This document shows positions 6,891 to 56,248 of a DNA stretch of 64,000 bases, piece after piece (position 1 is the stretch's first letter; every line of letters begins with the position of its first letter). The translations under genes and the position numbers were made by a program. Below the pieces are notes generated by a model. The model made no database searches. It was given only the letters and a program-made list of their open reading frames with translations, and had not been told where the DNA came from. The DNA comes from Chiloscyllium plagiosum. Its lineage: Eukaryota. The DNA lies in contig NC_057728.1 of the NCBI RefSeq assembly GCF_004010195.1, positions 26,936,699 through 27,000,698 on the forward strand, in the 5' to 3' direction.

Positions 6891-7076
6891 GTAAACCGAA
6901 AGAACTGCAGATGTGTAGATCAGAAACAAAAATAGAAATTGCTGGAAAAGCTCTGAGTTCTCAAGAGGTCTCCTCAGTTCTGAGGAAGGGTTACTTCATC
7001 TGGAACGTTAACTCTGATTTCTCTCCACAAATGCTGCCAGGCTTGCTGATGTTTTCCAGCAATTTCTGTTTTATTG
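6891..7076. mobile_element. Penelope-derived palindromic non-autonomous element (family with gaaattgctggaaaagctc ends)
   Basis: Inverted arms gaaattgctggaaaa / ttttccagcaatttc; degenerate hammerhead core CTGAGGA...GGAACGTTAAC; flanking near-direct repeat ctaattataat / ctaattgtaat. Confidence 0.65.
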
Positions 7077-7250
7077 CTAATTGTAATAAGGCGGGTGCTC
7101 GACTTTAATTGTCCTAATCTAAACTGAGATACTAACAGTCTAAAAGCCTTGAGGGGAAGAAGAGCTTTTAGAAGTTAGAATTTATTGCCGTGTTATGTTT
7201 TATTGTCATGTATACTAAAGTACAGGGATACATGAGTACAATGAAGAGTG

Positions 7251-7471
7251 AGGAGAAAGTGAGGTCTGCAGATGCTGGAGATCAGAGCTGAAAATGTGTT
7301 GCTGGAACAGCGCAGCAGGTCAGGCAGCATCCAGGGAACAGAAGAATCGACGTTTCGGGCGTAAGCCCTTTTTCAGGCTTCCTGAAGAAGGGCTTATGCC
7401 CAAAACGTCGATTCCCCTGTTCCTTGGATGCTGCCTGACCTGCTGCGCTGTTCCAGCAACACATTTTCAGC
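7251..7471. mobile_element. Penelope-derived hairpin element with two mutated hammerhead cores and a 14-bp TSD
   Basis: About 90-bp inverted arms at 7286-7377 and 7381-7472; TSD tacaatgaagagtg at 7237-7250 and 7472-7485. Confidence 0.85.
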
Positions 7472-7524
7472 TACAATGAAGAGTGTACAAAGTCACCATT
7501 TCTGGCGACATCTTAATTGCAAAG

Positions 7525-7870
7525 ACACAGTGGCTCAGTGATTAGCACTATTGCCTCACAGAACCAGGGATGTAGATTCAATTCCAACGTTAGGTGAATG
7601 TCTGTGTGGAGTTTGCACATTCTAGCTGTGTCTGTGTAGGTTTCCTCCTGTTGCTCTGGTTTCCTCCCCCAGTCCAACGATGTACACATTAGGTGAATTG
7701 GCCATGCTAAATTGCCCATAGTATTCAGGGATATGCAGGTTAGATGCATTAGTCTGGGGTAAATGTAGAGTAGTAGGGGAATGGGTCTGGGTGGGTTACT
7801 CTTTAGAGGGTCAGTGTTGGCTTGTTGGGTCAGAGGGCCTGTTTCCTGTAGGGATTCTATGGTTCTATGG
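7525..7870 (+). mobile_element. HE1-type tRNA-derived SINE (V-SINE)
   Basis: Box A/B-like head (tggctcagtgattagc...agattcaattcc), V-domain gtctgtgtggagtttgcacattct...ggccatgctaaattgccc, and LINE-like tail. Confidence 0.85.
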
Positions 7871-7954
7871 GAACTATGGTGTCCAGATACAAAGTCTTTG
7901 GTATAAATGGGAAGAATAAAATTAAAAGTTCAGGATTACAGACCTTCTATAGCA

Positions 7955-8440
7955 GGGTCATAAAGATGTACAGCACAGAAACAGACCTTTCAATCAAACT
8001 CATCCATGCCAATCAGATATCCTAACCTAACCTAGTCCCATTTGCAAGCACTTGGCCCATATCCCTCCGAAGCCTTCCTCTTCACCTACCCAGCCAGGTG
8101 CCTTTTAAATGCTGTAATTGTACCAGCCTCCATCACTTCCTCTGGCAGCTCAGTCCATACACACACTATTCTCTGTGTGAAAAAAGTGCCCCTTTGGTCC
8201 CTTTTATATTTTCCCTCTCTCACCCTAAACCTATGCCCTCTAGTTCTGAACTTACCCACCTCAGGGAAAAGACCTTGTCTATTTACCCTATCCATGCACC
8301 TCATGATTTTATAAACATCTATAAGGTCACCCCTCTGCCTCTGACACTCCAGGGAAAACAGCCTCAGCCTATTAAGCCTGTCCCTATAACTCAAACCCTC
8401 CAACCTTGGCAACATCCTTGTAGTTTTTTTCTGAACCTTT
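7955..8440 (-). mobile_element. HER1/CR1 LINE 3' end
   Basis: ORF 8086-8478 contains the CR1 ORF2 C-terminus (RMLPRLEGLSYRDRLNRLRLFSLE...GDLIDVYKIM...FFTQRIV..W..LPEEV). Confidence 0.9.
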
Positions 8441-8512
8441 TTAAAAGAGAAAAATAATATAAAAGCAGACAAGTCCATGCTGGGTTCACTTGGAGGTCAG
8501 GAGTCCTGGAGT

Positions 8513-8696
8513 TGGGGGCAAAAAAACCTGCAGATGCTGGAATCTAAAGTTGACAGGCAGGAGGCTGTAAGAACACAGCAAGCCAGGCAGCATCAGGAGG
8601 TGAAGAAGTGGATGTTTCAGGTCCAAAACAATGACCTCTCCAACTCCTGATGCTGCCTGGCTTGCTGTGTTCTTACAGCCTCCTGCCTGTCAACTT
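8513..8696. mobile_element. Penelope-derived hairpin element with 53-bp perfect inverted arms
   Basis: Arms 8547-8599 and 8644-8696 are exact reverse complements; degenerate 14-bp TSD aggagtcctggagt (8499-8512) / aggcgttctggagt (8697-8710). Confidence 0.8.
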
Positions 8697-9980
8697 AGGC
8701 GTTCTGGAGTCAGCATTTTTCAGTAATTCAAGAAAAGGCTAGTGAGCCAAATGGATCGAGTGTCAGGGAACATTTTTGATGAACAAATAAAAAGATCAGT
8801 GATTATAGAGTCGTAAAGTTTAGATTAGCCAATGGGAAAGAATAGAAATATTAATTGACAAAGGGTCAACTTCAGTTGAGAATAAATCTGGTGTAGATAA
8901 ATTGGATTAAAAAAAGACAGACAAAACTGTACTGGAAAAATAATTTGTCTTTAACAAGCAGATATTTCAAGTACAGTTGAAGTACATTTCCACAAATGGG
9001 AAATGTAAGGGTTAATGATGATGGAGCAGATAACCACGAGACTGGACATATTAATCCCACAGTAGCAACTAGTAGTATTTAATATTCAATCAATTAATTC
9101 ATCATTAAAAATAACCATGAAATGATTGGATTATTAAAAACACCCATCAAATTCTGCAGGGTTGTCAGGGCAGGAAATGTGGACCCAGTCGGTCTCCAGA
9201 TTCACAGCAGTATGATTGACTCTTAATTGCTCTCTGAAATTGGTTAAGAAAACATTCTGTTGTATAACGCTGTTGTTTAAGGCCCATTCGAATAATGGGA
9301 ACAATGACAGGATGGTATCCGGGGTAGAAAGTTGGTTGATTGACACGAGGAAATGATGGTGAATGATTTCTTTTCTCGCTGGAACAAGTGGAGTTCCCCA
9401 GAGGTCAGGACCACGGTGCTTTTTTAAAAAAAAAAATCATATGAACGACCAAGACTCGAGTGTGCACTGGATAATTTCAAAATTGCAAGTAACCCAAAAC
9501 TTGGAAGTATTGTGAACTGTGAGGCAGGTAGCGATAAACCCAAAACAGAGGCGAGCAGGAGGGTGGAAAGAGTGAGCACCATGCATTTGGCTGATGCAGG
9601 AAATGTGCAGTGAATACAATTTGAGGACAGGCAATGTGAACTAGAAGGCAATGCCGAATAAACGGTGTCGAAATAATTCAGGCTGAAGCTGACTAGGGTT
9701 TTTAGCAGACTTAAAATTCAGCTGGATTTATTCAGTCAGCGGAGGTAATTTCCTCCAAAGGGTGTAGAGGAGCGGTGTGCAGGAACTGAGCTGTACTGAG
9801 CCTGGTTTCCCCTGTGATGAGCAGTGTGACACTGGTAGGAGAAGCATGTGCCTGGTTTGTCTCTGAGCAGATAGTGCTGTTGGTTACTGCCTGCCTGCAC
9901 TTGAGGGAGTTAGAGAACGCTTTGCAGGAAGGCTGTTCACTTCCTCCTCGTGTCCCACTCCAGGAGAAGGCGCATTTAAA

Positions 9981-10454
9981 ATGTTCCCTTCCTCTGTGGC
10001 CATGAGACTGGCTGCGTTTGGCTATAGACCGGGACACTGGCTGCAAACCCGGCTGTCAGACCTCACCCAGTGCAGGCAGCTGGCTACCTCCCGGCCCCAG
10101 AGTCCTCCAGGCCCTTCCGTGGACATCTCGGCAATGTTAGGGCCAGGGCCGGAGCCGGAGCCGGAGCCGAGTGAAGCTCGGCTGAAAGAGCTGAGCAGGA
10201 GGCAGCCCCGGCAGAGCTCACTGCTGCTGTTCCCCGGCCAGGGCACCCAATTTGTGGGAATGGGCGAAGGGCTCCAGAAATACCACAACGCCAGGCAAAT
10301 GTTCGCAGCAGCCCAGAAGATCCTGGGCTATGACCTGCTGTCTTTGTGTATGAATGGACCGGAGGGAGAGCTAAATAAAACTGTTCACTGCCAGCCAGCA
10401 GTTTTTGTCACGTCCTTAGCTGCAGTGGAAAGGCTGCATCTTGAAAACCCTGAA
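9981..10454 (+). CDS. MCAT: Mitochondrial malonyl-CoA:ACP transacylase, coding exon 1
   Basis: Arg/Ser/Leu-rich presequence-like N-terminus, then FabD motifs LLFPGQGTQFVGMG and CQPAVFVTSLAA. 474 bp, phase-0 donor GAA|GTAAGT. A second in-frame ATG lies at 10002. Confidence 0.95.
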
Positions 10455-10699
10455 GTAAGTACAACTTGGGTTAGCTACCCACGTTTCAAATCCCTCTCCT
10501 GTTTGACATAAGCTTTTTATAAATGTTTCAAGAAAACTCAAGGATCACAAACAAGTTGATTACACCTCCAGTCCATTTAAAATTTAAAGAAAAGTGCTAC
10601 ATTATATTTCTGTAGGCAGTGTGACATTTACAGGATGGTACTATGAACTGAAAACTGAACTGAACTGAACTGGCCATATAAATACTGGGACTATAAGAG

Positions 10700-11210: not shown

Positions 11211-11215
11211 CATCG

Positions 11216-11246
<31 letters not shown>
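11216..11246. repeat. (GT)n microsatellite
   Basis: Direct reading of the gtgtgt run. Confidence 0.95.
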
Positions 11247-11249
11247 TGG

Positions 11250-13075
11250 GGGGTTCGTTAGAACAGAGATAGACTTGAATGAATTGCTATTGAAAGAGAG
11301 AGGAGGTATTAGCAGACTTGAAAGGGGATAATTTCCCCAGGGCCAGATGAGGTGTATCTCAGGCTGTGGTGGGAAGCAAGGGAGGAGATTGCAGGGGCTC
11401 TGTCTCTTGTTTGTTTTCAAATCCCCTCTGGCTGCAGGAAGGGTGACAGAGGACTAGAGGACACATAATGTACTGTTATTACTCAAGAAGAGTAGTAAGG
11501 ATACTCTGGGAAGTCCAGAGATGTATAGTTTAGGTGGTTTGGCCATGCTAAATTGCCCGTTGGGTCCAGGGATGTGCAGGCTAGATGGATAAGCCTTGGG
11601 ATTTGCAGGTATGGGGTGGGTCTGGGTCGGATAATCTTTGGAGGGTCGAGGTGGACTTGATGGGCCGAATAACCTGCTTCCACACTGTAGGAGTTCTATA
11701 AATCTAGAAGTACAGGTCAATGAATCTAACATCTGTGGTAAGGAAGCTATTAAGAAAAAAAGTCTGAGGGAATTAATCCCCATTTTTAGAGAGGTAAGAA
11801 TTAATTAAGGATCATCAGCATGGCTTTGTAAGGGGGAAATCTTATCTAATAAATTTGATTGAATTTTTTAAGGAGTTCACTAGGTGTGTAGATGAGGGTA
11901 GTGCAGTTGATCTAGTCGATATACACTTCAGTATGGTTGCATGGCAGACTGATTAAGATGTCGAAAAGTGTGGTGCTGGAAAAGCACAACAGGTCAGGCA
12001 GCATCCAAGGAGCAGGAGAGTCAGCGTTTCAGGAATAATCCCTTCATCAGGATTCCAGATGACTTAGTGGCAGGAAGCAAATGGTGCTGGTTGAAGAGTG
12101 ACAAAACAGTGATGTACCAGTGTTTGGTGTTGGGCCCTTTGCTGTTTGTAATGCACATTTAATGATCTAGACATGGACATAGGAGATATTATCATTCATT
12201 TTGCAGATGACATGAAAATTGGTGATGTAATAAATCCTGATGACTGTTAAAGCCTTAGACTGCAGGATGATACTGACAGGCTCATTGGATTGGCTGAACA
12301 GTGGCAAGTGGAATTTAATCTTGAAAAGCACTTTGGGAGGATTATCAAGGCAAGAAAGTACACGTTCAATGGTAGCACCCTTGGAAGTAAAGAGCATCAT
12401 GGGGACATTGGTTTGCTCATCTATAGATCCTTAAGCCAGCAGAGCAGGTAGATAAGATAGTTAAGAAGGCATAGAGGAAACATCTTTATTAGTCAATATT
12501 CTGAAAATGAGAGCAAGGAGGTTATGATGGAGCTGTGTATATTGTTAGTTAGGCCACAGCTGGAATAGCATTTGCGATTCTAGTGGAAGAGATTCACCAG
12601 AATATTACCTGGGCTGGAGAGAAACAGCTGTGGAGAGAAACTAGCCAGGCTAAGCTTGATTTTTTTCAAAGCAGTGAAGGCTGAAGCAGGTGGGATCTTT
12701 ATTGAAGTGAACAAAATGATGAGCATAGACAGGAGAGTTTCAGAGAAGCTTTTCCCAATAGTAGAGGGATCAGCAACCTGGGGGCACAGTTTTAAGGTAA
12801 GATGCAGGAGGTTTAGAGTGGAGTTGAGCAAGAACATTTTCACTGACAGGTGGATATCTGGAGCTCACTGCCTAAAATGGTGGATAAATTGATAGAGACA
12901 GGAACCCTCAAGATATTGAAGAACTACTTGGACAAACACTTGAAATACCATGGTATATACAGCTGTGGGCCAAGTGTTTGAAAATGGGATGAGGAAAGGT
13001 TGATATTTGATGACCTGCATGGAAGCTATGGGCTGTGGGGTCTCTTTTTGTGCTGTAAAAACTCAACTCTCTATG
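11250..13075 (+). mobile_element. Degenerate CR1 LINE ORF2 remnant with a nested HE1 SINE piece (~11510-11700) and a Penelope terminal fragment (~11960-12056)
   Basis: RT motifs recognisable in broken frames (QHGFV.GKS.L.NL..FF; VLGPLLF; FADD.K); nested SINE V-domain and gtggtgctggaaaagcac...cccttcatcagg. Confidence 0.75.
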
Positions 13076-16611: not shown

Positions 16612-17990
16612 ATTTCCTTTTATAACTCAATTTTAATGCTTCAATTGAATTTGTTTTCACCACATTATCTGGCAGTGCATTCTAGATCTTAACCACTTGT
16701 TGAAGCAGAGGGTGTTTTTTTTTCTTTGCAGTCTTGTTTCTTTTCCCAATAAATCTGTTTAGAAAATGCTGGAGAAACTCAGCAGGTTTGGCAGCATCTA
16801 CTTTGAGTCCAATGTAACTCTGGTTCTGAAGTTTCTGTTTCTAATGTTGGATCTCCAGCATCCATAGTACTTTGCTTTCAATTGATAATTTTCCAAACGG
16901 GAACAATATCTCCCTATCTGCTCTGTCTAGGCCCTTCATGATTTTGAATAATTACATTAAAGTGCCTCCAAGGAAAGGAGTCCCAACTTCTACAACCTGT
17001 CAACATAATTGAAGTTTCTGGCTCTTTGTGAATCTTTTCGCTACTGTCTCCAATGTTTTCACATCCTTCCTAAAATGCACCTCCTAATACTGCAGCTGAG
17101 GCTGAATTAGTGACTTATACAGATTTGAACATAACTTCATTTGTACAGTTTGCTGCTATTAACAAAGCCAAGAATGCTGTATGTTTTATTATTCGCTCAG
17201 TATCAATCCTGCCACCTCTAATGTTTTATGTACATACGCACCCAGGACCCCTCTGCTTCTGCGCCCCCTAGAGGGTTATATTCTTTACATTTTCTTTCCA
17301 TGTTCTACCTAACAAAATGAATCACTTCTCCACATTGAACTTCATCTCCATCTATCCATCCACTTCATCAAATTGTCTATGTCCTGTTTGATGTTCTACA
17401 CTATCTTCCTTACATTTCACACTGCTACCAATCACAAAGTGTGAAATTATACCTTTTGCAATAAACTTTAGGTCATTAATATATTATCAAGAAAAGTAAG
17501 AGTCTCGACACTGAATCTGGGAACTCCATTACAGATGTTCCTCCAGTCTGAAAATTATCCATTAACTGTTACTATCTTCTTCCTGTCACTCAGCAAATCC
17601 TTGTTGTTAATGTCCACTTTATTCCATGAGCTGTAACTTTCCTCACAAATCTGTGTGGCACTGTATCAGACACCTTTTTGGAAATCCGTGTACACCATAT
17701 TTCTTTGAAAAAACTCTCAACTAGTTAATTAAAAATAATTTTCCCTTATAAATCCATGCTGGCTTTCCTTAATTAACTGACTACATGAGTATAATTTTGT
17801 TCTGAATATTCTTTCTACAAGTTTCCCCACACTAAAGTTAAACTGACTGGCCTGTACTTCTGGGCTGATCTTTACAGCCTTTTTTCAACAAGAGTGTAAC
17901 ATTTGCAATTCCCTTGTCCTCTCACACCACCTCTGAGTCTAAGATGGAAAACAATAGTCAGTACCTTCACAAAAAAAAACTAGATTGTTT
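16612..17990 (-). mobile_element. Old CR1 LINE remnant (antisense) with a nested Penelope-type hairpin at ~16762-16880
   Basis: Degenerate antisense RT segments (aatccatgctggctttcc, aaactgactggcctgta); nested aaatgctggagaaactcagcagg...tctccagcatcc. Confidence 0.6.
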
Positions 17991-19936
17991 GGAATTTTGG
18001 CAAATTTCTGCTTGTCTCTGTGCTATACATTTGGTCCCATTTCTGCTTAAACACCAAGGCTGTCAATTTCAACCTCGATAACACTGTGTCTTGATGCTAT
18101 CTGCTACTGAAATCCTCACTGATACCTTTGTGACCTCTCAGACCAAACTATTCCATTGCTTCCATAACTAGACTCTCACTGTGCACCGCCTGTAAAATTG
18201 AGCGTATCCAAATCTGTGTGGCTCCTGTCTTAGCTCTCATCAGTCCCCATTCTCTTCTTGCACCTTGCTTACCACCCTACATTATCCTGCAGTGTGATGA
18301 AGCCTCCACTGTTTTTAGCTCTCTCCTGCTTTTCCCCCTCCGTATCTGTATAAACTCCGTAATTTCATCACTATTGTCCTCCATTTCTGGCCTTTTACCC
18401 ACCAAGACCAATCTATTTCTACTCTGACACACCTGACTCACTTTATTTCTCTACTCACATGTTCCATTCTCTTTCTGTTCATGTACATTCCAACATACCT
18501 CTCCCATTCACATTCAGCTTTCATTATTCTGGTTGTACCTCTCCTCTATTTCTGTGCTCTCTCCTTGCACATATCCTACTTGAATTCTACTTTTACATAG
18601 GCTCATTATAACTCTTTGTTCACTGGTTGCACTCTCTCTACTCATAAGACCCACTCTTGAACTGTTAACGCCTCTTTCCTGACATAATGAAATGTGAAAG
18701 GAGATCGGGAAAGTTGTCCACCTTGAAAATCTAGGGTCAGATCATAAACAACATTTCATCTCACCAAATTGTGAAACTATATTCTCAGAATCTGGTTTCT
18801 CACCCATTACTACTGACTAGGTTAGAAATAGTTTGCAGGCTGGGATATGTGGTTCATTCAATGCTATATATGTGCAATGATGAATCCAATCTATGCCCTA
18901 AGCATACCCAACAGAAAGCATTAGTTGCTCATTGAGAGTAAACCCCTTGATCATCTTCTTCATAGGTTGTGTGTCTATTTGGACTTGATATGTTGAGGTA
19001 ATTGGGTTTATGACCTTTAATTGCTGTTGACTTTTTTTCTGTCTCACCTACACCCTCTGCTGCACCAATTGCAGATTCTGTCTGACCTACGTTCTCTGCT
19101 GCACAAATCATAGATTCCCTATGTCCTATGCTGTCTGATGCACCAATCACACATTCCCCTCTTTACTGCACTTACTTCTCCTAAATTCTCAGCTACACTT
19201 TACCTCAAGTTTTCTCCAATTTCTCGTACTTTTGCTCTTTAGATCTAATGCTCAGACCTGCCCCTTATTAGAGTTTGCTTTTGTTTGTGATATTTTGGAG
19301 GAAACATTGTAAAGAATGTTTTACTACATTAAATGTGCTATATAAACGAAAGGTGTGGTAGTTGTACAGAGATTCAGGTCAGAGGCAGACAGACTAAATG
19401 CAGAAAATGCAATATTGGGTGGTTTTCCATTCTCCACCTTTTGGAAATTCTGTTTTTGCATTTGGTGTGAGCGCATGCTCAGGTGGCAGTAGATCAGTAG
19501 GTTCTTTAAAAATACTGTTTGATAACTCATCCATCTTATATCTCTTCCTCCTCCTCATACTGTGCAGCATGTTAATATGGCTGCAATCAACAACTCAGTG
19601 CTGTCTATTTAGGTGGACATTCTTACTGCAGCTCTTTAGAATGTTGCGCAACCAGCAGGATATGTAACTGAGCATACTCCCATATGTTTCCTGAGGTATT
19701 TTACTTTATTCTTTGTTTATGAGCCCAGATTATGAATACCACCTGGGCTATTTGATTGTAATGAATATCAGAACTAACCCAGACAAGCACGTGTTTGATA
19801 CCCATGTTCAACAACATTACTGAAGCTCTATTAGGAACACAAACTCAAGCTCATTATTTCTCCTTTTCAAAGTCACTAATGTCAGTAAAAAAATATTTCT
19901 ATTGCTACCTTTTTGCTAAGCTTACTAACTGAACAT

Positions 19937-20132
19937 TGTTAAAAATCACACAACACACAACAGGTTTAATTGGAAGCACACTAACTTTCGGAGCGATGCT
20001 CCTTCATCAGGTGATTCAGGAGCGTCGCTCCGAAAGCTCGTGTGCTTCCAATTAAACCTGTTGAACTATAACCTGGTGTTGTGTGATTTTTAACTTTGTA
20101 CACCCCAGTCCAACACTGGCATCTCCAAATCA
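19937..20132. mobile_element. Penelope-derived inverted pLTR element with an 11-bp TSD
   Basis: Inverted arms aaaaatcacacaacac..caggtttaattggaagcac / gtgcttccaattaaacctg..gtgttgtgtgattttt; TSD taactgaacat at 19926-19936 and 20133-20143. Confidence 0.85.
19979..20013 (-). ncRNA. Minimal type I hammerhead ribozyme motif (Penelope-type)
   Basis: Minus strand reads CAC-CUGAUGA-A-GGAGC-AUC-GCUCC-GAAA-GUUA-GUG: intact catalytic boxes, 5-bp stem II, CAC/GUG stem I, NUH triplet. Confidence 0.75.
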
Positions 20133-20588
20133 TAACTGAACATAGAACTGGAGGTTTATCCTGGATCATGCTGGTCTGTGTGGATCCGTGTTATTTAGGC
20201 AGGTGAGAATAAAGTGGTGTTAGTTTATGACTTTGGAGGTGTTGGTGATGGTGATAGGAAGAGGTATTCATTTCCTTTGCTTTGTGAGGGAGACAGTAGT
20301 TAATTTTGGTGTTGGTATACTTTGTAGCCTTTCATTTCTGATAGACGTTGAAGGGATTGGAATTAACTTAATTTTCCTTTTGCTTTGTTGTTAATTTGTG
20401 GTTTATTGTTTGAGCTCCTATAAAACGCAGACACTTGTGAACTCTAACAATATTGTTGCCACCATAAGCTAAGTTAAGAGTTAATTTTTGGTTTGGAACT
20501 GTGAAGATAACTAGTGGACAGTGCACTACCTATTGTGGATTTGTATTTTTCATGTTGCTAAGTTCTAACTGTCTTTTTATGTCTATAG

Positions 20589-21740: not shown

Positions 21741-22282
21741 TTTTGGAACATTGTAGTCAGATCCTACACTATTTCCTGCCTTACTACACCATGATCTTTG
21801 AATATAATCTATATCCATGTAATTTGTCTGTATGTAGTTTAAGTATTTTAATTAAACCACTTCTCTTTAAATAGTACCCTGCACTGCTTGTTTTACACCC
21901 ACTTCTTTTGATTTAACATCTCAGTAACCACGCCTTTAAAATTGAGGCAATAATGTATTTAACCTCTGAATGGCCTAACTTGGATTTAATTAATGCATTT
22001 TTTGAAAATATATTCATGTGTTTATTTTGCTTAATTTTATTCAATATTTCCTGTTAAACCTTTAATCTTTATTTTTGTAACTTTGCTATATTTGGGGTTC
22101 TCATTTTCTTTTTAATATTAGCCCTGTAAATGTAAATTCTCTTCTATGAACCTTAATGCATTATCAACCACACAACTTAGACTTTTCTGTGTTCCCAATT
22201 GGTTAAATATATTTGTGAAATCAGGTGAAAATGAATAATTTGGAATTGAAGTTGTGTTTACCAGTGCTGTTCTCCACTACAG

Positions 22283-22500
22283 CTCTCTATGCTGTGAAAG
22301 TGCGGGCAGAGGCTATGCAGGAGGCATCAGAATCCATTCCTAGTGGCATGTTATCTGTTGTGGGGCAAGCTGGATCCAGATTCAAGTATGCCTGCCTGGA
22401 GGCTCGTGAACATTGCAAGACATTGGGAATAGAGGATCCTGTGTGTGAAGTGGCTAACTACCTCTTTCCCAATGGACGTGTGATTGCTGGAAATTTACAG
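22283..22500 (+). CDS. MCAT: MCAT coding exon 3
   Basis: Acceptor ccactacag, donor CAG|GTAAGT, 218 bp, phase 1 to 0; LYAVKVRAEAMQEASE..PSGMLSV...VCEVANYLFPNGRVIAGN. Confidence 0.96.
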
Positions 22501-33099: not shown

Positions 33100-33776
33100 A
33101 AGTATCAGCAAAAGAATCACCTACCTTTCAGTACAAGACAAGGCTTCCATGCTCACATGTACACATACACTCACACTCGCCCTCTCTCCTTCACACACAC
33201 AGTCTCTCTCCCTCTTTCCCTCACGTGCACGCACACACACATATAACTCTATGGGGTGAATTTGCTTTTGCAGAATTGTATTTACAGATACATTCTATTT
33301 TAAAAGCACACAATCTGTAGGTAGTCAGCCCACATGACATTTTATAAATTCCTACTTTGGAAATAGAACTAGTTTGACTCAAAATTGGAATGCAGATAGA
33401 CTCTATCCTCACACCTTTAAATCATAGTCTGAGCTGAGATGTAGCTTTTTTTTAATAAAACCTCAAGTTATCTCAGGAATGTGACTTGAGAGAAGTTCTG
33501 GGATTTACATATTAATGAATTGAAATCTGCAATCCATTCTAAAAGATGAAAGATTTAACAGCAATCTAGTTCTGTTCAATAAATCGTATCAGTTGCATGA
33601 CACTATGATCTTGTGATATAAATTCTGTGTCTTTTGATCCTGCTCCATTAACTACCTGACGAAGGAGCAGTGCTCCAAAAGCTTGTTACTTCCAAATAAA
33701 CCTATTGTACTATAAGCTGGTGTTGTGTGATTTTTAACTTTGTCCACCCCAGTCCAACACCGGCACCTCCTCATCA
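33100..33776 (+). mobile_element. Penelope-like pLTR remnant with a (CA)/(CT)-rich tract and mutated hammerhead
   Basis: 3' end matches the 19937-20132 family (ctgacgaaggagcagtgctccaaaagc...aataaacct...gtgttgtgtgatttttaactttgt...cagtccaacacc). Confidence 0.7.
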
Positions 33777-34099
33777 TATTATATCCTAGTAACTATATGC
33801 AGACTACACTAACGCTAAGGCATTTGACTATTATCAGTGAAAGGTAAAGAAGACACGTGACTCCATGAGGAGACTGTGACCAACTATTATCTGCCTGAAT
33901 TGACAGATATTCCCATCAGTGTGTGTTAAATACTTGAATGGGTGGACTTTAAGATAGCTTATAGGTTGATCCTTTTGTATCCATTACCTTTATATAACAT
34001 CTCCTTCCAAGCTATTTCTCTCTTAGTTAACTTATGAAACAATTGTATAAGCCACTACATTCCATTTATCATGACTTCTTTTCTTCTCTGACTTCACGT

Positions 34100-36120: not shown

Positions 36121-36722
36121 AGAGAATACTGTACAAACTCAGCAGGTTTGACAGCACCTGTGGAGAGAGATAGAGTTAACGTTTCAAGTGTGGTATTCTA
36201 AGGCATAGCTTTTCTGCTCTCAGGATTTGTCTGTGATTTTCCCTGGATTTGCTTATAACAATTTGGATAGATCTTCACAAATATATATCCTTTTTGAAAT
36301 GTAAAAGCTCTGATACTGATCTGGTACTGATCAAAAGATAGTCACCTCTTCTGCAGAGACTCAATCTGTCTACCACCATAGTTGACTGAAACAGCCACTT
36401 AGAAAAGCTTAGGAAGGAGGTAGCACTCTGCACTGAACACAAGCCACCAGCGGTTTATACCTGATCATCACATCATATTATAAAATAGTGGCAGCAATGG
36501 GATGACTTTATGTAAGTATCAGCAGAAGAGTCACCTATCTCTTATAACAAGGCAAGATTACATGATTATATTAATCCTGAGGTATATCAACTATTACTAA
36601 CGAGAGATGGAAAAGACTCCTGCATCTCCATTAGTAGACTGTGACCAACTACTGTCTGCCCCAACTGCCTGTTACTCCATCCAGTGGCTGTGTTATATTT
36701 CAGAATAGGCAGCTCTCAAATC

Positions 36723-36848
36723 AGGAGAAAGTGAGGACTGCAGATGCTGGAGTTCAGAGTTGAGAGCATGGTGTTGGAAAAGCACAGCAGGTCAGGCAGC
36801 ATCTGAGGAGCAGGAGAATCAACGTTGCAGGCATAAGCCCTTCATCAG
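36723..36848 (-). mobile_element. Penelope terminal fragment (same family as 7251 and 49428)
   Basis: ggagaaagtgaggactgcagatgctggag...gcataagcccttcatcag; degenerate flanking repeat cagctctcaaatc / cagctcctcaattc. Confidence 0.8.
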
Positions 36849-37424: not shown

Positions 37425-38320
37425 TCATAGAATCATACAGCACGGAAACAGGCTATTCAGCTCATCGCTGACCAGATATCCTAAATTATTCTAGTCCTGT
37501 TTGCATGCATTTGGCCGTATCCCTCTAAACCCTTCCTATTCAAATACACTGCAAATGCTTTTTAAATGTTATAATTGTACCAGCCTCCACGACTTCCTCA
37601 AACACTACCCTCTGTGTGAAAAGGTTGCTCTTTAGGTCCCTTTTAAATCTTTCCTCTCTCACCTTAAACCTATGCTCTGTAGTTTGGACTTCCCTAACCT
37701 GGGAAAAGGACCTTGTTTATTTATCCTATCCATGCCCTTCATGATTTTATAAACCTCTATAAGGTCACCCCTTAGCATCTGATGCTTCAAGGAAAATAGC
37801 CTCAACATATTCAGCATCTCCTTATAGCTCAAACCCTCTAACCTCAGCAACATCCTTGTAAATCTTTTCTGAACCCTTTCAAGTTTAACAACATTTTTCC
37901 TATAGCTGGGCGACCAGAATTGAACACAGTATCCCAAAAGTGGCCTAACCAATGTCCTGTATAGGTGCAACATGACTCCCCAGCTCCTATGTTCAATGCA
38001 CTGACCATTAAAGACAATTGTGCCAAATGCCTTCTTCATTATCCTAACTACATGTGATTCTATCTTCAAGGAATTATGAACCTGCACCCCCAAGGTCTCT
38101 GTTCAGCAACACTCCCAGGACCTTACCATTAAGAGCATTAGTCCTGCCCTGATTTGCCTTACCAAAATGCAACACCTCACACTTGTCTAAATTAAACTAC
38201 ATCTGCTACTCCTCGGCCCATCTGATCAAGGTCCTGTTGTACTTTGAGATAAACTTCTTCAATGTCTACTACACCATAGATTCTGGTTCATCTGCAAACT
38301 TACTAACCATTCCTCTTGTG
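37425..38320 (-). mobile_element. HER1/CR1 LINE 3' portion
   Basis: ORF 37659-38093: LYRTLVRPLLGYCVQFWSP.Y.K.V.KLERVQKRFTRML...GDLIEVYKIM. Confidence 0.92.
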
Positions 38321-42287: not shown

Positions 42288-42441
42288 AAATAAAAACTGA
42301 AAGAACTGCGGATGCTAAAAATCAGAAATAAAAACAGAAGTTGCTGGAAAAGTTCAGCAGGTCTTGCAGCATCTGTGAAGAGAAATCAAAGTGAATGTTT
42401 CAGGTCTGGTGACTCTTCCTCAGAACTGATGTTAGTTAAGG
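42288..42441 (-). mobile_element. Penelope terminal fragment with hammerhead core and an 11-bp TSD
   Basis: TSD aaatcaagact at 42277-42287 and 42442-42452; minus strand GUU-CUGAGGA-AGAGUC-ACCA-GACCU-GAAAC at 42397-42426. Confidence 0.75.
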
Positions 42442-46804: not shown

Positions 46805-47994
46805 TGTAGACAGACATCCTGTCTCAGAATTATTTTGTTAATGAGATGGAGCGAGAGAGAGAAACGGTGGTGGTGGGGTTTCTCTCAAAGAGAAAAACAT
46901 GCTGCAGCAAGGGGAGTGTACTGTGCTTCTCTGTACAGCCAGTCAGAATGTAGAAAGCAATGTTTCAACCTGGATTTGCCCATCTGGATAAATTAAAATC
47001 AGATCTCAAGGTGTCCCTCCAAAGAGTATTTGTTTACATCAAATATAGTTGGATCTTGCAGTAAGCAATCTTTTGCCCTAAGCCCCTCTAATTCACCCTT
47101 CTATCAGAGATTGTCTCACATGACTAATGAGATCACAGCTACATTGCAGCATACCTGTGAGGTGTACCTTTGAAGGGAACACAATCTCTGGTTGAAGAGA
47201 TATATTCTGTGACAATCTAAAGATGCTGGGTGATTTGTCCTTCACTTGCCAGGGAGAAAGGAAGCCCAAGGAGCAGGTCTGACAGCAACTAGGTGGTTTG
47301 GAACTTCTGAAGAAACTGAGGGAAACATCTTTCAACCATCATTCAGTAAAAGGAGGAGACATAAACTCATGGAAGATGGAAATGATTATGGACTGTGTAC
47401 CTTTCACATTTTAAACCTCCGGCAGCAGACTGGAAAATGTATATCAAAAGATGATCCTTCACCAGACCTGCTTTCTTCCCACAGATGCTGCCTGATCTGA
47501 TGAGTTTCACCAGCAATTTCTGTTTTTGTTTCAGATCTCCAGCACCATAGTTCTTTATTGCATTTTCGTGTCTCATTGATAATGGTTCAAATATTACAGT
47601 CTCTGGATTAACAGACACCAGACACATGATGGATGATTTATGCCAGGACCTGATGGACCTCCTGACACACAGACTAAATGGGAATTGTGTGGGAAGTTTA
47701 CAGTTCTGTAGGGCTGTTTCCCAGCTGCGTCTCTGCAAATGCTTGTGGCCTTGAACATGGGGGCAGAGACTTGGGCTGTATACACATGACTTTCCCGAAT
47801 ATCTACCAGGAAATTTAAGAAGGTTTAACACCTGGTTTAGTAGATAACTCCACAATCATCATTCCCACTCCAACTGTTTATCTGACCATTCACCCCAAAT
47901 CAGCATGAATATTCAGACCTGAAATAAAATAGAAATTGCTGGACATACTCAGCAGGTCTGATAGCATTTGTGGAGAGAATGCAGAATTAACATA

Positions 47995-48425: not shown

Positions 48426-49427
48426 TTTAATCTTTCCAACATTTCCTAGCTAACTGTAAATAAGTCAGAACCATCTGAAGTCTCCCAACTCTTCAGAGTT
48501 GGGACATTTTTAGGACAGTTCCTGAAGTTGGAACCAATAGAAGTTTGAACTTCCCAGGCAACTGCCATGGAGTTAGCTGCTATGGGATTTCCACATGGTC
48601 CCAATGTATAATTCCAGTCTACATTTCCGGAATGACTGCCTTCCTATCTGAAGATCTGTGCTAATATTAAATACACCATTCAAATATCAACATCAATTAA
48701 GTTCAATCAACATTGGCACATTGAGCACCCTTTTGTTGGATGTAAACAGCAAAGCAGGCGAATTTTCTTCAGCTGGTTAGAGTAGTCCTTATTCCTGAAT
48801 CTTGCAGAAATAGATGACTGAAATAGACATGATCACTTTGAGTATTCCTGGGAAGGATATTAACTCTATGTAATGCACAAACCATATTATACTTCCAAGT
48901 GTTACAGGGACCAAAATTAAATTTCTATCTATTACTGGATCTAATATTACAAGCTCAATTACAGAATCTCATCCATACAAAGGATATTTGTCAGTGGGCA
49001 CTCCAAGTCTCGGATCAATATAAAATGTTGGTCTACCACAATTGGAGAGAATCAGAAACAGACTAAAGTTGAGACAGAGATAGAGAGTACCAGCTTATCA
49101 TGCTCTTCAGTGCTGGAATAATCCATATATAGGTTAAAAGTAGCATCCCATTAACAGGAGCCTCTGGAAGACATCCTGTGTGATTGCACTGAGTGTGTAA
49201 TTTTAAGATTGTGAAATTACAGAATGTGTGAAGCAGAACAACCTTGATCTAAGCGATATACTGTGGTGATGGGGTTACTCCTGACAACTGGAAATTATAA
49301 AGTACAAACCTGTTGTCCTGAGCCTCATTCTTGTTTTTGAAATTGAAATTTGGTAATCCCCATTCTGCACCCTATTTGCGTCCACGATTTAAATGGAAAT
49401 TGTCCTTAATTAGGGTTTTCAAATCTT

Positions 49428-49608
49428 CTAGGAGAAAGTGAGGACTACAGATGCTGAAGATCACAGTCAAAAAGTGTGACGCTGGAAAAGCACAGCCGGG
49501 CAGGCAGCTGGTCTTCCTGATGAAGAGCTTATGCTTGAAACATGGACTTTCTGCTCCTCGAATACTGGCTGACCACCTGTGCTTTTCTAACACCACACTT
49601 TTTGACCT
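49428..49608. mobile_element. Penelope-derived hairpin element with hammerhead core and a 15-bp TSD
   Basis: TSD gggttttcaaatctt at 49413-49427 and 49609-49623; CTGATGA-AGAGC-TTAT-GCTT-GAAAC at 49517-49541. Confidence 0.82.
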
Positions 49609-50399
49609 GGGTTTTCAAATCTTATCCATCACCACTGAAGTACTGTCAGACTAAAATATTGTCCAACAGTCACCCCAGACCTGTCTTTGTCTTGGTTTAA
49701 AATCAGCAAAGCAAAACAACCCTGTGTGAGAGATAACCAGCCTCGGCAATTTGCCAATTTTTATTTTAATTGTAGATTGACACTTATGACTTCATAAAGT
49801 ACATCAGTCTTGGCAGAGTAGTACACTGCATCTCATTGTCAGTCAGGACTGTTTCAGAAGCAGTTCATTGATTCAGTCTTGGAACACTTTGCTCCTATAC
49901 ATTGTAAACAATGAACAAGCAAATATAATTACTAAAAATCTTAACGGGAAACTTTGAGGGAAAAGTTTCATCGTAGACAGGGATGAGTAGGGTAGACTTG
50001 GAGGGGTTCGTGTAGGTTGCTGAAAGCCTTGCCTGAACAGTCATTTTCATGATTTGACAACAATGGTAATAATTTGTAGTTATATTATACTTTTAACATA
50101 TGGAATTACCCTAAAGCATTTCACAAGAATGATGTCAAACAACATTTTGCTACCAAACCATATGTAGTGATATAGCTCTGATATCCAAAGATTTGACCGA
50201 AGATGTATATTTTAATAGCACCTTAAAGAAATTAAAAACTGTAGGTAGGTTTTGGGAGGGAATTTCAATGCTTAAGTGTAGACAGCTGAAGGAATAGAGT
50301 GTACACATTTTCTCAAAAAGTTGTGGGATTGGAGGACGTTGCACAGATAGGGAGGAATAGGTAAGTTCATGAAAACAAGTAACTGGATTTTAAAATTAA

Positions 50400-50628
50400 G
50401 ATAATAAAACAGAAATTGCTGGCAAAAGCATCAGGTCTGACAGCATCTGTCAGGAAAAAAGGAGAGTTAATGTTGCAAGTCTGGTGACTCTTCATGATCT
50501 GCAGAGAAGTCACCTGACTCAATGTCAACTGTGTTTTCTCTCCAGAGATGCTACCCAACCTACTGATTTTTGCCAGCAATTTCTGTCTTTATTTCAGATC
50601 TCCAGCATCCGCAGTTCTTTGTTTTATC
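50400..50628. mobile_element. Penelope-derived palindromic element (6891/42288 family)
   Basis: Inverted arms acagaaattgctggcaaaa / ttttgccagcaatttctgt. Further relatives lie at about 47445-47560, 47920-47990, 58290-58430, 59470-59600 and 60775-60915. Confidence 0.7.
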
Positions 50629-50835: not shown

Positions 50836-51038
50836 ATAGAACATAGAACATAGAAGAATACAGCGCAGTACAGGCCCTTCGGCCCTCGATGTTGCGCCGA
50901 TCCAAGCCCACCTAACCTACACTAGCCCACTATCCTCCATATGCCTATCCAATGCCCGCTTAAATGCCCATAATGAGGGAGAGTCCACCACTGCTACTGG
51001 CAGGGCATTCCATGAACTCACGACTCACTGAGTAAAGA
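50836..51038 (-). mobile_element. Young CR1 LINE 3' end with (ATAGAAC)n tail
   Basis: atagaacatagaacatagaag tail, CpG-retaining hairpin caggcccttcggccc, RT-end sequence. Confidence 0.8.
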
Positions 51039-52443: not shown

Positions 52444-52793
52444 TTGAAAAATGTGGTGCTGGAAAAACACAGCAGGACAGGCAGCATCCGAGGAGCAGGA
52501 GAATCTGGGGGGAGGGGAAATGAGGAAGCTGGAGAAATCTACATTCATCCTGTGTGGTTGGAGGGTTCCTATGCGGAAGATGAGGCGCTCTTTCTCCAGG
52601 CGTCGTATGGCCAGGGTCTGGCGATGGAGGAGGCCAAGGACTTGCATGTCCTTGGTGGAGTGGGAGGGGGAGTTAAAGTGTTCAGCCGCAGGGCGGTTGG
52701 GTTGGTTGGTGCGGGTGTCCCAGAGGTATTCCCTGAAACGTTCCTCAAGTAGGCGGCCTGTCTCCCCAATGAAGAGGAGACCACATCGGGTGC
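52444..52793 (-). mobile_element. Penelope-like element fragment encoding the GIY-YIG endonuclease C-terminal half, 14-bp TSD
   Basis: Minus frame CTRCGLLFIGETGRLLEERFREYL...AEHFNSPSH...MQVLGL...RRLEKERLIFRIGTLQPHRMNVDF; TSD attattttcagctg at 52430-52443 and 52794-52807. Confidence 0.9.
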
Positions 52794-53414
52794 ATTATTT
52801 TCAGCTGGAATTGATAGGAATTGAGAACAAAAGATGAGGAAGGTTAAAGGACTAAATAGTTTTATTGAAGAAATATGTCCTAGCTGGAACATTTGAAAAA
52901 AAAATCACAAATGTACTTTGTTGACATAAACATAATAAGTGTTATATTATAATCAGAACTAATTGAAGGATTGTTTTGAGTAAACTATTTTAATTAGAAG
53001 TTAGTGAAGATACTGATATCACCAAAAGTGACCATGAAGTTCAGCCACGAAAAGTCTGTGGATTCATTGTGCCGTGAAATGAGAGAGAAGTTCCAAATTG
53101 ACTTAAAAGAGTATAATATTAAAAGGTATTGATCTGCTAGAGTGAGTGAGACTCTATTAGTTTTTAGTATAAAATAAAAATATTGCTCATATATCTGTGA
53201 TTGAAAGCGGCCATGACAGAAACAAAAGTGGCAGATGTATTCTAACCATTGCCCTTTATGAGTCTTGAGCTGTTTGATAATAACATAGTGAATCTTGCCT
53301 TTAAACATGAGTCAGTCACGCTCCATATTGTTGAGGTGATATGGCTTTGAATAATTTAGTGTTAAAATTGTTGACTTTACAAATCCGTCATATAAGGATT
53401 CTGAGAGGTGTGGT

Positions 53415-53428
53415 GTTGTCATGGTAAC
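53415..53428. promoter_or_regulatory. RFX X-box motif
   Basis: GTTGTCATGGTAAC within the near-palindrome GTGTTGTCATGGTAACAC. Confidence 0.4.
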
Positions 53429-55016
53429 ACATCTAGCAAGCTATGTTACCATGTTTGGAAACTGGAATAGGTATATTGATGCCGTTTGGTAATGCACTGA
53501 CAGGATTGATCACGTGAATATAAATTTGCCAAGTTCAAGAATTTGATTATAATCAATTTCATTGATGTGACTGTTGTGTTGAAAGTTTATTAAACAATTC
53601 AGAAAGTAGGTACATTAAAGTGGGCTTTCAGAGCAACTGCTTCAGAAATCCGAAGGTGGGTAGTGTGAATTTGTGAAGGTAGAATTTACCAGAAGGTAGT
53701 GTGACTTAGTCAAATTAAGGGCCATGAATGTGAGAAAACTAGCAGGTGTGAATGTAGAAAACGTGAATTGATAATGTTGGTAAGCTTCAATCCAGTTTTT
53801 GTTTTCTCACAATAATGAACTGCCTTGGCCAATATGAGGAATGACTTTCTCTTTAATGGTGACCTTTGAACATTATCCATCCTTTTGCAATGCTCAGTAT
53901 GGCTGACTATGCCATTCACCGCTAATGCTTCTCCTCCATTGTGCAACTGTACTGTGTACTGGGCTTGCATGATTCTATTCCTACCTGTTTAAGTGCATAC
54001 GTGCACTTCTATGCTTTGCTTCCATCTCGTGCATTGCCATCTCTGGAAACTGCACTGCACCCTTCCAGAGATCTACCTTGATTCCCCTCCTCTTCCTTGT
54101 CTACATGCCACAATCTGATAATAATATGGGTGAACATTCAACTAGAAGATACTAATTTGAGTTAAAAGGATCTAAAATAGGAGGATTAGAATTAAAGATT
54201 CCCAACTAATCCAATAAATGAACAATGGGAGGCCTTCAAAGAGGAGATAGTTTGTATACATGGAAACAGAGAAAATTTACAACACAGAAGTATATCACTT
54301 GAACCATCCTGTCTGCCAGCCAACAATAATTACCCAGTCTAATCACACTTCCCCTTCCTTGTTCTTTCACATTATAAATTATGGCATTTCAAGTGCATAT
54401 CCAACACTTTTCTTAAATGTGATGAATGTCTCTGCCTCAAACACACCAGTCACTCAACCTCTGAGCTTGTGCAAGGTTTGTGAAGGTTTGTAGCTCAGTT
54501 GAGGTTTATGGTGTAGGTTTGCTCGCTGAGCTGTAGGTTTGATATCCAGACGTTCAGCCAGACTACTACGACCCCTCAGAATCCTAGTAGCACACAAACC
54601 TACCAACACTCTCAAACAAAAACTAACAAACTTAAAAGACCCAGTACAACCCATGGACAAAACCAACATCATCTACAAAATTCCATGCAAGGACTGCCAC
54701 AAACACTACTTAGGTCAAACAGGAAGAAAGTTAGCCACCAGGATACACGAACACCAGCTAGCCACAAAAAGACACGACCCTCTCTTCCTCGTAGCCCTAC
54801 ACACGCATGAAAAAAAACACCATTTCAACTGGGACAACACATCTATCCTGGGACAGGCTAAGCAAAGACATGCTAGAGAATTCCTAGAGGCCTGGCATTC
54901 CAACCACAACGCCATAAACAAACACATAGGTCTAGATGCCATCTATCAACCCCTCAGAAAATAAACAGGAAATGACATCACCACAAACCCCAGGAACCCC
55001 ATCCAGGGGAAAGATA

Positions 55017-55319
55017 TTAGATTAGATTACTTACAGTGTGGAAACAGGTCCTTCAGCCCAACAAGTCCACACCGCCCCGGCGAAGCGCAACCCACCCATA
55101 CCCCTACCTTTACCCCTTACCTAACACTATGGGCAATTTAGCATGGCCAGTTCACCTAACCTGCACATCTTTGGACTGTGGGAGGCACCCGGAGGAAACC
55201 CACGCAGACACGGGGAGAACGTGCAAACTCCACACAGTCAGTTGCCTGAGGCGGGAATTGAACCCAGGTCTCTGGTGCTGTGAGGCAGCAGTGCTAACCA
55301 CTGTGCCACCGTGCCGCCC
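55017..55319 (-). mobile_element. Young HE1-type SINE nested in the Penelope pLTR
   Basis: Near-identical antisense of 13618-13924. Confidence 0.93.
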
Positions 55320-55382
55320 ACTAAATATAAATATATATAAATAGAAAGCAGGAGACAACAGCTTCGCTTCACTTGGAGGTCG

Positions 55383-55422
55383 CCACTGATGATGTTATCT
55401 AGCCAGGTAATGAAACATCTGG
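55383..55422 (+). ncRNA. Minimal type I hammerhead ribozyme motif in the Penelope pLTR
   Basis: CCA-CUGAUGA-UGUUAUCU-AGCC-AGGUAAU-GAAA-CAUC-UGG with stem I CCA/UGG. The inverted copy near 54545-54556 preserves the ancestral CGUC. Confidence 0.72.
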
Positions 55423-56248
55423 ATATCAAACCTACAGCTCAGCGAGCAAACCTACACCCTCTGAGCTTGTGTTTAAGTAACCACAAGATTTCATGCTCAG
55501 CTTACAACGTAGGAAATGAGAGGCATTCTGGATTTCTCAAATAGCACAGAAATTGGAGGCAACATGTCTCATTATCCTGTCAGTTGCTCAAGAGATCTTT
55601 TACTCTAATTATTTAGGTTTTGTATGGTCATTTGACTTATTCTAAATAAAGTTCCCATTCTTGCCAAATTTCTGTAACAAGGTACACCCAGCTCTGTGCT
55701 CACATTGTACATATAAAATGCTACACAATCATTAATGAAAATAATGTCAAAAAACTGTTTTAGTGGTGATGGGCAGAACATCAGGAGTTGATGTCTTCTT
55801 GTCTTCTCAAAGTGCCATTGAATCTTTCATGTTCACCTGTACAGTTATAGTTAGAGTTATATACCAATTGTTTGTAATTGTTTACCTGTTAATATAGTCT
55901 AATTACTTGTGATAAATACCCTCACAATTTTTATTAAATGCAGAAGCCTAACTATGCTTTCATTTAATCTGAGACTGGAATTCCAATGTGCTAACCAGTG
56001 AGTCATGACAATGTGAACTTATGACAATAATCATTCTGAGTAATGGGTGATATTAATTGGCACTGTTAAAATACGTAATATGATGACAAAAGTTGTGAAT
56101 ATTAGTATTATCATTGGGAGAGAGGAAACATTTGAATTTGGACTACATGAACTGTGACAGTAAAGAAATAATTGTTATTTGCATAACATACTCTTACATC
56201 AGAAAGTGTTTCGGATTCGATGAATTGTTTTAAAATGAAGTCAATGTT

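What the first reader, a model, noticed from the sequence alone, without database searches (positions are those of the whole stretch)
6891..55457. At least four families of short hammerhead-ribozyme-bearing, Penelope-derived elements with long TSDs
Seen: CUGANGA-stem II-GAAA cores with four different stem II sequences: GGGC-UUAU-GCCC (7251, 11960, 36723, 49428), GGAGC-NNN-GCUCC (19979, 33657), GAGUC-ACCA-GACC type (6980, 42397) and GUUAUCU-AGCC-AGGUAAU (55383). Many copies are 150-230 bp, non-coding, hairpin-shaped and bounded by 11-15 bp direct repeats. Two families are physically linked to GIY-YIG coding fragments (52444, 54472). Established: Penelope-like elements carry minimal type I hammerheads with a palindromic stem III thought to cleave as dimers. 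Inference: these MITE-looking shark repeats are ribozyme-containing retro-insertions, either extreme truncation products or a retrozyme-like non-autonomous class. With well over a dozen copies in 64 kb, this may be a very large, under-described ribozyme population.
Basis: partly seen in the sequence, partly recalled or inferred. Interest (0 to 1): 0.78.

Follow-up and report, generated by a model that had tools for sequence, protein, structure and literature searches.

The report
Run-off copies of Penelope mRNA start
These short repeats are mostly decayed end-pieces of four ordinary Penelope-like jumping genes that carry a known minimal self-cutting RNA motif, and their sharp edges suggest they are likely DNA copies of the capped, uncut front end of the element's RNA, a testable clue to how this poorly understood class inserts itself.

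Summary
The four families and their 11-15 bp target duplications are real. Each is the hammerhead-bearing end (pLTR) of a Penelope-like element (PLE): GIY-YIG remnants lie upstream, weakly for family B. Only 3 of the 9 named window cores keep every invariant base. A random 1.15 Mb sample gives about 2x10^5 intact cores genome-wide. Minimal hammerheads, inverted pLTRs and tails are published PLE features.

Short copies are neither random truncations nor tandem retrozymes. In families A-C their 5' ends pile up about 30 nt after a TATA-like box, just upstream of the ribozyme and not at its cut site. An extra G precedes that point (B: 94 of 100 rows, against 26 and 12 one base away; A: 58 of 100). 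In hairpins exactly one arm has the tail (136 of 153 pairs). Short and long copies share subfamilies.

Likely mechanism: reverse transcription starts inside the 5' end of capped, uncleaved mRNA on both nicked strands and runs off the cap. Family D lacks the peak. Cleavage and the start site are untested. This scan noted the same pattern earlier on other DNA.

The parts
6896..7072 (.). Family C hairpin: short inverted tail-bearing arm plus forward arm 6974-7072; core at 6980 has GGAA for GAAA; imperfect 11-bp TSD
7250..7472 (.). Family A hairpin: minus arm with tail (G8>A), plus arm without tail (G12>A); both arms start 1-3 nt before the core; 14-bp TSD at 7237-7250 and 7472-7485
8528..8679 (.). 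Old A-like hairpin without hammerhead core
11960..12052 (-). Family A solo arm, no tail, starts just before the core; U16.1>C; no TSD found
16762..16799 (-). Family C arm fragment, no core
19930..20132 (.). Family B hairpin; minus arm has an intact core (20010-19982) and no tail, plus arm has the tail; 11-bp TSD at 19926-19936 and 20133-20143
33465..33778 (+). Longer family B copy with 3' UTR, TATA-like box at 33617 (40 nt before the core at 33657), G12>A, tail
36129..36194 (-). Family C arm, core incomplete
36724..36848 (-). Family A solo arm with tail, starts at the core; GCAA for GAAA; weak 10-bp TSD
42295..42435 (-). Family C solo arm with tail; core bases intact, stem II broken; 13-bp TSD with 1 mismatch
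47468..47993 (.). Two family C arm fragments (47468-47556 +, 47936-47993 -), no core
49425..49605 (.). Family A hairpin: short tail-bearing minus arm, longer tailless plus arm; core at 49517 has G17; 15-bp TSD at 49413-49427 and 49609-49623
50416..50625 (.). Old family C hairpin, cores decayed
52444..52795 (-). Family A copy: C-terminal endonuclease coding fragment (52794-52510) joined to the pLTR 3' arm; 3' UTR and hammerhead core deleted; TSD 16 bp with 1 mismatch
   Evidence: relative L109 scores Pfam GIY-YIG E 4.4e-5
54472..55460 (+). Family D insertion: short inverted tail-bearing arm (54470-54554), GIY-YIG fragment (about 54555-54961), unrelated repeat inserted at about 55021-55330, TATA box at 55336, core at 55386 (invariant bases intact), no tail; TSD 13 bp exact, 17 bp with 1 mismatch
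   Evidence: relative L130 carries RVT_1 (E 2.6e-8) in frame with GIY-YIG
58293..60837 (.). Further family C arms outside the finding's range (58293-58392, 59475-59597, 60782-60837)

Best explanation
The repeats are short insertions of the terminal module of four endonuclease-bearing Penelope-like retrotransposons, likely made when reverse transcription starts inside the 5' end of the element's capped, uncleaved mRNA and runs off the cap. Shown here: the module order is coding end, 3' UTR, TATA-like box, minimal type I hammerhead, 45-65 nt arm, optional 35-nt tail; 3' ends fall at two fixed points; 5' ends pile up about 30 nt after the TATA-like box; an extra G precedes that point; hairpins carry the tail on one arm only; TSDs are 10-17 bp. 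From the literature: a PLE protein nicks and extends both target strands, starts at two internal RNA sites that delimit the tail, and uses uncleaved RNA (PMC11167929). Inferred: the pile-up point is the transcription start and the G is the copied cap. Initiation on the 5' copy of the module gives 95-135 nt run-off copies; initiation on the 3' copy gives long copies. Hairpins arise when each nicked strand primes its own cDNA, one from each start site, and the two cDNA ends join by microhomology. Short copies lack the TATA box and all sequence 3' of the start sites, so they would be dead on arrival and then decay.
For: Coding link: A and D long copies sit downstream of GIY-YIG or RT+GIY-YIG frames; C upstream remnants match the A endonuclease (E 3e-21). 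Cliff in the random sample: A 69 of 187 arms start in an 8-nt window, 8.6 per nt against 0.45 per nt in the 40 nt upstream; B 20 of 59 (2.5 against 0.2); C 14 of 69 (1.75 against 0.12). TATA-like motif at -35 (A, 26 of 41 long copies; rest -33 to -37) and at -38 to -40 (B, 14 of 14), against breakpoints at -4 and -8. Base before the breakpoint, counted by hand from the first 100 listed rows: B G 94 of 100, against 26 of 100 one base downstream and 12 of 100 one base upstream; A G 58, A 31, T 11; other breakpoints G 39 of 157. In 20 of 40 B junctions and 4 of 16 A junctions with G, the G is in neither the TSD nor the partner arm. Few starts at the cut site: A 6 of 187, B 2 of 59, C 1 of 69. Tail on exactly one arm in 136 of 153 classifiable pairs, 68 of 70 with a TSD. 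In 66 of 136 such pairs the tailless arm reaches further 5', so neither arm can be a copy of the other. Short and long copies interleave in a tree and share five of six stem-loop subfamilies. G12 in a CpG is mutated in 21% (A) and 41% (B) of copies, like other CpG sites.
Against: No transcription start was mapped; RNA reads of a related organism show no molecule starts or ends. Family D has a clear TATA box at -50 but few short copies and no peak (10 of 50 arms start between -33 and -2). In 18 of 40 B and 11 of 16 A junctions the G also matches the partner arm or TSD, so part of the G excess is microhomology. The C pattern excludes C at the junction; if all 696 C-bearing matches are added, G falls to about 62%. 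The A box (TTTATCT) is a weak TATA, the long copies were selected for having it, and the peak windows were set after seeing the data. The G count for family C is not usable, since that G is a consensus base. D. virilis Penelope has a TATA-less internal promoter (PMC2377424), so short copies might keep promoter activity. The tree uses 92 columns and shows slight label clustering (30 changes against 36 shuffled, 2-3 of 500 shuffles as low). The B coding link is weak (pairwise E 6e-5, no Pfam hit). No intact full-length ORF was recovered.
Confidence: 0.72

Rival explanations
1. The short copies are a self-propagating non-autonomous class (SINE-like or retrozyme-like), transcribed from an internal promoter and mobilised in trans by PLE proteins.
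For: Shared 5' and 3' boundaries; very high copy number (209,519 exact hits to a 19-mer of A); internal promoter in D. virilis Penelope (PMC2377424); non-autonomous PLE derivatives exist (PMC8557442); weak clustering of short copies in the tree.
Against: Five of six stem-loop subfamilies contain both long and short copies. The sixth showed 12 short and 0 long only after an identity filter, and its long copies are visible. No tandem arrays: 11 of 346 arms have a same-strand neighbour within 500 nt, at varied spacing. Hairpin junctions differ from copy to copy. The one studied PLE needs RNA 3' of its start sites (PMC11167929), which short copies lack.
Confidence: 0.1
2. The fixed 5' edge is a polymerase stop at the folded ribozyme or a bound protein on a longer RNA, with a non-templated base added there. 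It is not a transcription start.
For: In A and C the edge coincides with the first base of stem I; D has a TATA box but no peak; extra bases of several letters occur at some junctions.
Against: In B the edge lies about 5 nt outside stem I yet keeps the 30-nt distance to the TATA box. The added base is G at that one position only. A stop after passing a structure is unusual (own knowledge).
Confidence: 0.12
3. Hairpins form when a single cDNA folds back and copies itself, or they are MITE-like DNA elements with terminal inverted repeats.
For: Both arms belong to the same subfamily in 41 of 45 A pairs (shuffled mean 17.8); palindromic cores favour fold-back; 29 of 136 pairs have the tail arm longer.
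Against: In 66 of 136 pairs each arm has sequence that the other lacks. Ends are asymmetric, sizes run from 149 to 2992 bp and TSDs are 10-17 bp, and the arms continue into PLE coding sequence.
Confidence: 0.05

Closest known systems
Minimal type I hammerheads (min-HHR) in pLTRs of metazoan PLEs (Cervera and De la Pena 2014, PMC4209133)
   Same: Extra base before stem II, G-C first pair of stem II, palindromic 15.2-16.2, short stem I, many families per genome, mostly single motifs on truncated copies, some pairs on opposite strands.
   Different: About 2x10^5 intact cores estimated here against about 9,000 in X. tropicalis (descriptors differ). The text read does not report fixed 5' ends or an extra G. 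Their circular-RNA model is not visible in the short copies.
PAc, Poseidon from Anolis carolinensis (Frangieh et al. 2024, PMC11167929)
   Same: Two internal start sites delimiting an optional tail; both strands nicked and extended; uncleaved RNA as the template; no ends at the cut site.
   Different: Here the genomic record adds one-tail-per-hairpin asymmetry and a fixed 5' run-off point with an extra G. Three families are Neptune-like or unassigned.
Inverted-pLTR Penelope insertions (Adineta vaga Pen2a_Av, PMC3846280; PMC8557442 Fig. 2 legend)
   Same: Inverted 5'-truncated pLTR, tail on one end, TSD, TATA box plus Inr-like sequence in the pLTR.
   Different: Single-copy there, with 8-10 bp TSDs; here more than 10^5 copies, mostly ORF-less, with TSDs of 10-17 bp.
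Metazoan non-LTR retrozymes (PMC7229834; bioRxiv 10.64898/2026.07.22.740005)
   Same: Non-coding, type I hammerhead, PLE-related, reported in one chondrichthyan genome.
   Different: Defined as head-to-tail tandem repeats (canonical hammerheads, circular RNAs in PMC7229834); these are dispersed solos and head-to-head pairs with minimal hammerheads.
Untemplated 5' G of full-length L1 insertions (passage in PMC9341517)
   Same: Extra G at the 5' junction read as a reverse-transcribed cap.
   Different: In L1 it marks full-length copies; here it marks the shortest copies, because initiation is internal.

Membership tests
Endonuclease-bearing Penelope-like element | RT followed by C-terminal GIY-YIG in one frame | tested here: met
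   Family D: L130 RVT_1 E 2.6e-8 plus GIY-YIG E 0.032 in one frame. A: thumb remnant plus GIY-YIG. C and B: endonuclease remnants only, B weak.
Endonuclease-bearing Penelope-like element | pLTR in partial tandem or inverted arrangement | tested here: met
   Partial tandem in L130; 168 inverted pairs.
Endonuclease-bearing Penelope-like element | Optional 30-40 bp tail at one end | tested here: met
   Bimodal 3' ends about 35 nt apart in A, B and D, blurred in C; 136 of 153 pairs with one tail.
Endonuclease-bearing Penelope-like element | Target-site duplication | tested here: met
   72 of 168 pairs, 10-17 bp; control 1 of 834.
Neptune clade | Cys-rich linker between RT and endonuclease | tested here: inconclusive
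   Cys cluster seen by eye in A and C, absent in D (Poseidon-like), not reached in B. No RT phylogeny was built.
Minimal type I hammerhead of PLEs | CUGANGA, extra base, stem II, GAAA, NUH | tested here: met
   77 family hits in 1.15 Mb against 0-1 in controls; only 3 of 9 named window cores keep all invariant bases.
Minimal type I hammerhead of PLEs | Stem I and palindromic 15.2-16.2 covary between families | tested here: met
   Neither was in the search pattern. Stem I pair 1 is C-G, C-G, U-A, A-U and pair 2 is U-A, A-U, U-A, C-G in A, B, C, D; 67 and 68 of 75 paired against 0.59 and 0.31 cross-family. Pair 3 is U-U in most A copies (28 of 75 paired overall). 15.2-16.2 is CG or GC, 54 of 75 against 0.27.
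Minimal type I hammerhead of PLEs | Self-cleavage as a dimer or with protein help | not testable with these tools
   Energy folding did not recover the active fold; no read ends at the site.
Non-LTR retrozyme | Head-to-tail tandem units, each with a hammerhead | tested here: not met
   11 of 346 arms have a same-strand neighbour within 500 nt; no arrays in 1.15 Mb from large contigs. Arrays elsewhere in the genome are not excluded.
Non-LTR retrozyme | Monomer-length linear and circular RNAs | tested here: inconclusive
   Only poly(A) single-cell reads of a related organism were available: both strands, passenger-type reads.
MITE | Symmetric terminal inverted repeats, uniform size, short fixed TSD | tested here: not met
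   Asymmetric ends, 149-2992 bp, TSD 10-17 bp.

The most novel reading that the evidence does not exclude
Penelope-like elements place a dimer-dependent hammerhead at the very first nucleotides of their mRNA as a self-decapping switch. Only capped, uncut RNA is integrated, by a two-site twin-priming reaction. The hundreds of thousands of short inserts are a fossil record of strong-stop-like cDNAs, whose occasional jump to a second template rebuilds the pseudo-LTR tandem.
Probability: 0.25. Interest if true: 0.75.

Novelty: new member of a known kind. Interest (0 to 1): 0.48.

Why it matters
How PLEs integrate, why they form inverted ends with a one-sided tail, and what their hammerhead does are open questions; one element has been reconstituted in vitro (PMC11167929). 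This genome gives large-sample constraints. The template's 5' end is likely the cap, the ribozyme is uncut during copying, and the two cut strands likely use different start sites. Each point is directly testable. It also warns that most of the roughly 2x10^5 ribozyme motifs are by-products, not a working ribozyme population.

Tried and rejected
Rfam scan: no hammerhead model hit, only hairpin-type miRNA matches.

Cleavage-footprint idea: the 52505 junction joins the coding end exactly at the predicted cut site. But 97 similar deletion junctions genome-wide scatter from about +7 to +35 with no sharp peak (read by eye), so it is an ordinary internal deletion. A small excess of A starts at +27 to +31 (14 of 323) is mostly in hairpins (10 of 14), where a TCGA palindrome offers microhomology.

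Full-length elements: most long open frames in 20 fetched loci were assembly gaps.

Cross-family pair counting on the MAFFT alignment was out of register and was replaced by motif-anchored counts. Energy folding gave no active fold for monomer or dimer.

Selection on genomic cores: core non-CpG divergence is lower than in the arm (A 0.038 against 0.087), but this is confounded by subfamily polymorphism, base composition and alignment bias, so no claim is made.

Expression: no RNA holder listed. The second read lay used wrong coordinates and covered an unrelated repeat, so it says nothing about family B.
Full report
OBSERVATION. The window is an intron-rich stretch of a 3.56 Gb genome with acyl-transferase exons. 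All four families are present at the named places. A minimal-hammerhead descriptor found 80 hits in a random sample of 120 stretches (1,150,809 non-N bases, from contigs C1-C23). Of these 77 were family members; controls gave 0 (reversed) and 0-1 (five shuffles). Scaled up, that is about 2.4x10^5 intact cores, a rough figure since the sample covers large contigs only and gaps are ignored. Exact short patterns gave 209,519 (A arm), 39,679 (B arm), 2,749 (C arm, an old family), 9,835 (D arm) and 1,704 (one A core variant) hits, with 0 in each control. In the window only 3 of 9 named cores keep all invariant bases. In the sample plus window 67 of 123 A arms and 15 of 49 B arms that cover the core are intact. 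The 52444 copy has no core.

WHAT THEY ARE. Long copies show coding end, 3' UTR, hammerhead, arm and optional tail. L130 (family D) has RT and GIY-YIG in one frame, followed by the hammerhead, the tail and a further open frame, a partial tandem. Family A continues into a GIY-YIG frame with a Cys cluster. C remnants match the A endonuclease. B has only a weak remnant. Stem I and the palindromic 15.2-16.2 pair were not in the search pattern and still covary between families, so the motif was under selection in the active elements. After insertion G12 decays like any CpG base.

THE 3' END. Ends fall at two points about 35 nt apart in A, B and D. Frangieh et al. showed that these are two internal start sites of reverse transcription, that both target strands are nicked and extended, and that uncleaved RNA is used. 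Of 168 inverted pairs, 15 could not be classed. Of the other 153, 136 have the tail on exactly one arm, 7 on both and 10 on neither. TSDs of 10-17 bp flank 72 of 168 pairs, against 1 of 834 in a control. Only 30 of 232 apparent solos gave a TSD by script, many having short inverted stubs or being old. In 66 of 136 one-tail pairs the tailless arm reaches further 5', so each arm holds sequence absent from the other; 29 show the reverse and 41 are within 5 nt. This fits two separate cDNAs. Both arms share a subfamily in 41 of 45 A pairs.

THE 5' END. Arms were found by their 3' part and aligned to real long copies. Loci picked for a core or for coding sequence were dropped before counting. In the random sample A starts pile up at -6 to +1 (69 of 187), B at -10 to -3 (20 of 59) and C at -6 to +1 (14 of 69), 12-19 times the density just upstream. 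Only 6, 2 and 1 start at the cut site. A TATA-like motif lies about 30 nt before the peak in A and B, and in the C copies inspected; long copies were selected for such a motif anywhere in a 38-nt zone. Genome-wide, 1,330 B matches start at -8, 602 at -7 and 696 at -9. The preceding base is G in 94, 26 and 12 of the first 100 listed rows (hand counts, rows in contig order, some being two arms of one insertion). For A at -4 (10,450 matches) it is G 58, A 31, T 11. I inspected 40 of the first 42 B rows (two partner arms skipped) and 29 of 30 A loci (one duplicate dropped). The G is absent from both TSD and partner arm in 20 of 40 and 4 of 16 cases; it matches a partner in 18 and 11. An untemplated G is the accepted mark of a copied cap in L1. 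RNA reads of a related organism show 93 loose ends at the same -4 position, that is the same junction in passenger transcripts, and no molecule starts or ends. Against generality: family D has a TATA box at -50 but mostly long copies and no peak.

SEPARATE CLASS? A tree of 126 young A arms (83 short, 43 long, 92 columns) needs 30 label changes against 36 for shuffles. Five of six stem-loop subfamilies hold both kinds; the sixth lost its long copies to the identity filter. There are no tandem arrays in the sample. A short-only lineage is not excluded at this sample size.

MECHANISM. Shown: boundaries, extra G, tail asymmetry, TSDs, coding links. Published for one PLE: internal two-site initiation on both strands. 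Inferred: the peak is the transcription start; short copies are run-off products from the 5' module; hairpins come from twin priming; short copies are dead. The ribozyme begins at or near +1 and is uncut in the integrated copies. Its role is not shown.

LITERATURE SEEN. PMC4209133, parts 1-2 of 4; PMC11167929, parts 1-3 of 4; bioRxiv 10.64898/2026.07.22.740005, parts 1-3 of 5; PMC3846280, parts 1-3 of 5. Passages only: PMC2377424, PMC8557442 and its preprint, PMC7229834, PMC9341517, PMC6155905. No supplements were read; those of PMC4209133, PMC11167929 and the 2026 preprint may list shark motifs or 5' ends. Eight searches and these readings gave no report of start-site-bounded PLE copies with an extra G; subscription journals and repeat databases were not searched. 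Hammerhead numbering and the 30-nt TATA distance are recalled. This scan's own notes hold 226 findings with these words in at least 22 genomes, several with the same reading. I saw them after my analysis and they are not independent support.

VERDICT. A new, very abundant set of members of a known kind, mostly decayed, carrying a useful and testable mechanistic signature. Interest 0.48.

Noticed in passing
window 9867-10511, 22219-22509, 26112-26537 (+): Exons of an acyl-transferase gene (Pfam Acyl_transf_1 E 1.4e-8 for the first); likely malonyl-CoA:ACP transacylase (name recalled).
   Followed up: partly
window 56249-57329: Element with 142-bp inverted arms, 99% complementary, 797 bp apart, unrelated to the PLE families; looks like a young non-autonomous DNA transposon.
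   Followed up: no
window 6104-6485: Degenerate 28-bp tandem repeat, open in several frames.
   Followed up: no
window 55021-55330: A SINE-like repeat, also at 13616-13931 and 62315-62530, is inserted next to the TATA box of the family D copy.
   Followed up: no
L072, L092, L094, L153, L339, L369: PLE end-pieces of one family often sit inside or against those of another family, suggesting shared target preference.
   Followed up: no
L062:431, L354, L374, L375, L377: Junctions with short repeated pieces of the element's first 8-15 nt, as if the polymerase restarted or jumped at the 5' end more than once.
   Followed up: no
L115-L126: Long copies flanked by inverted ends mostly contain assembly gaps, so full-length PLEs may be under-assembled in this genome.
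   Followed up: partly
window 8086-8496, 14094-14516, 37659-38102 and others: Many LINE-like coding fragments, one with an endonuclease domain (Pfam E 8e-6).
   Followed up: no
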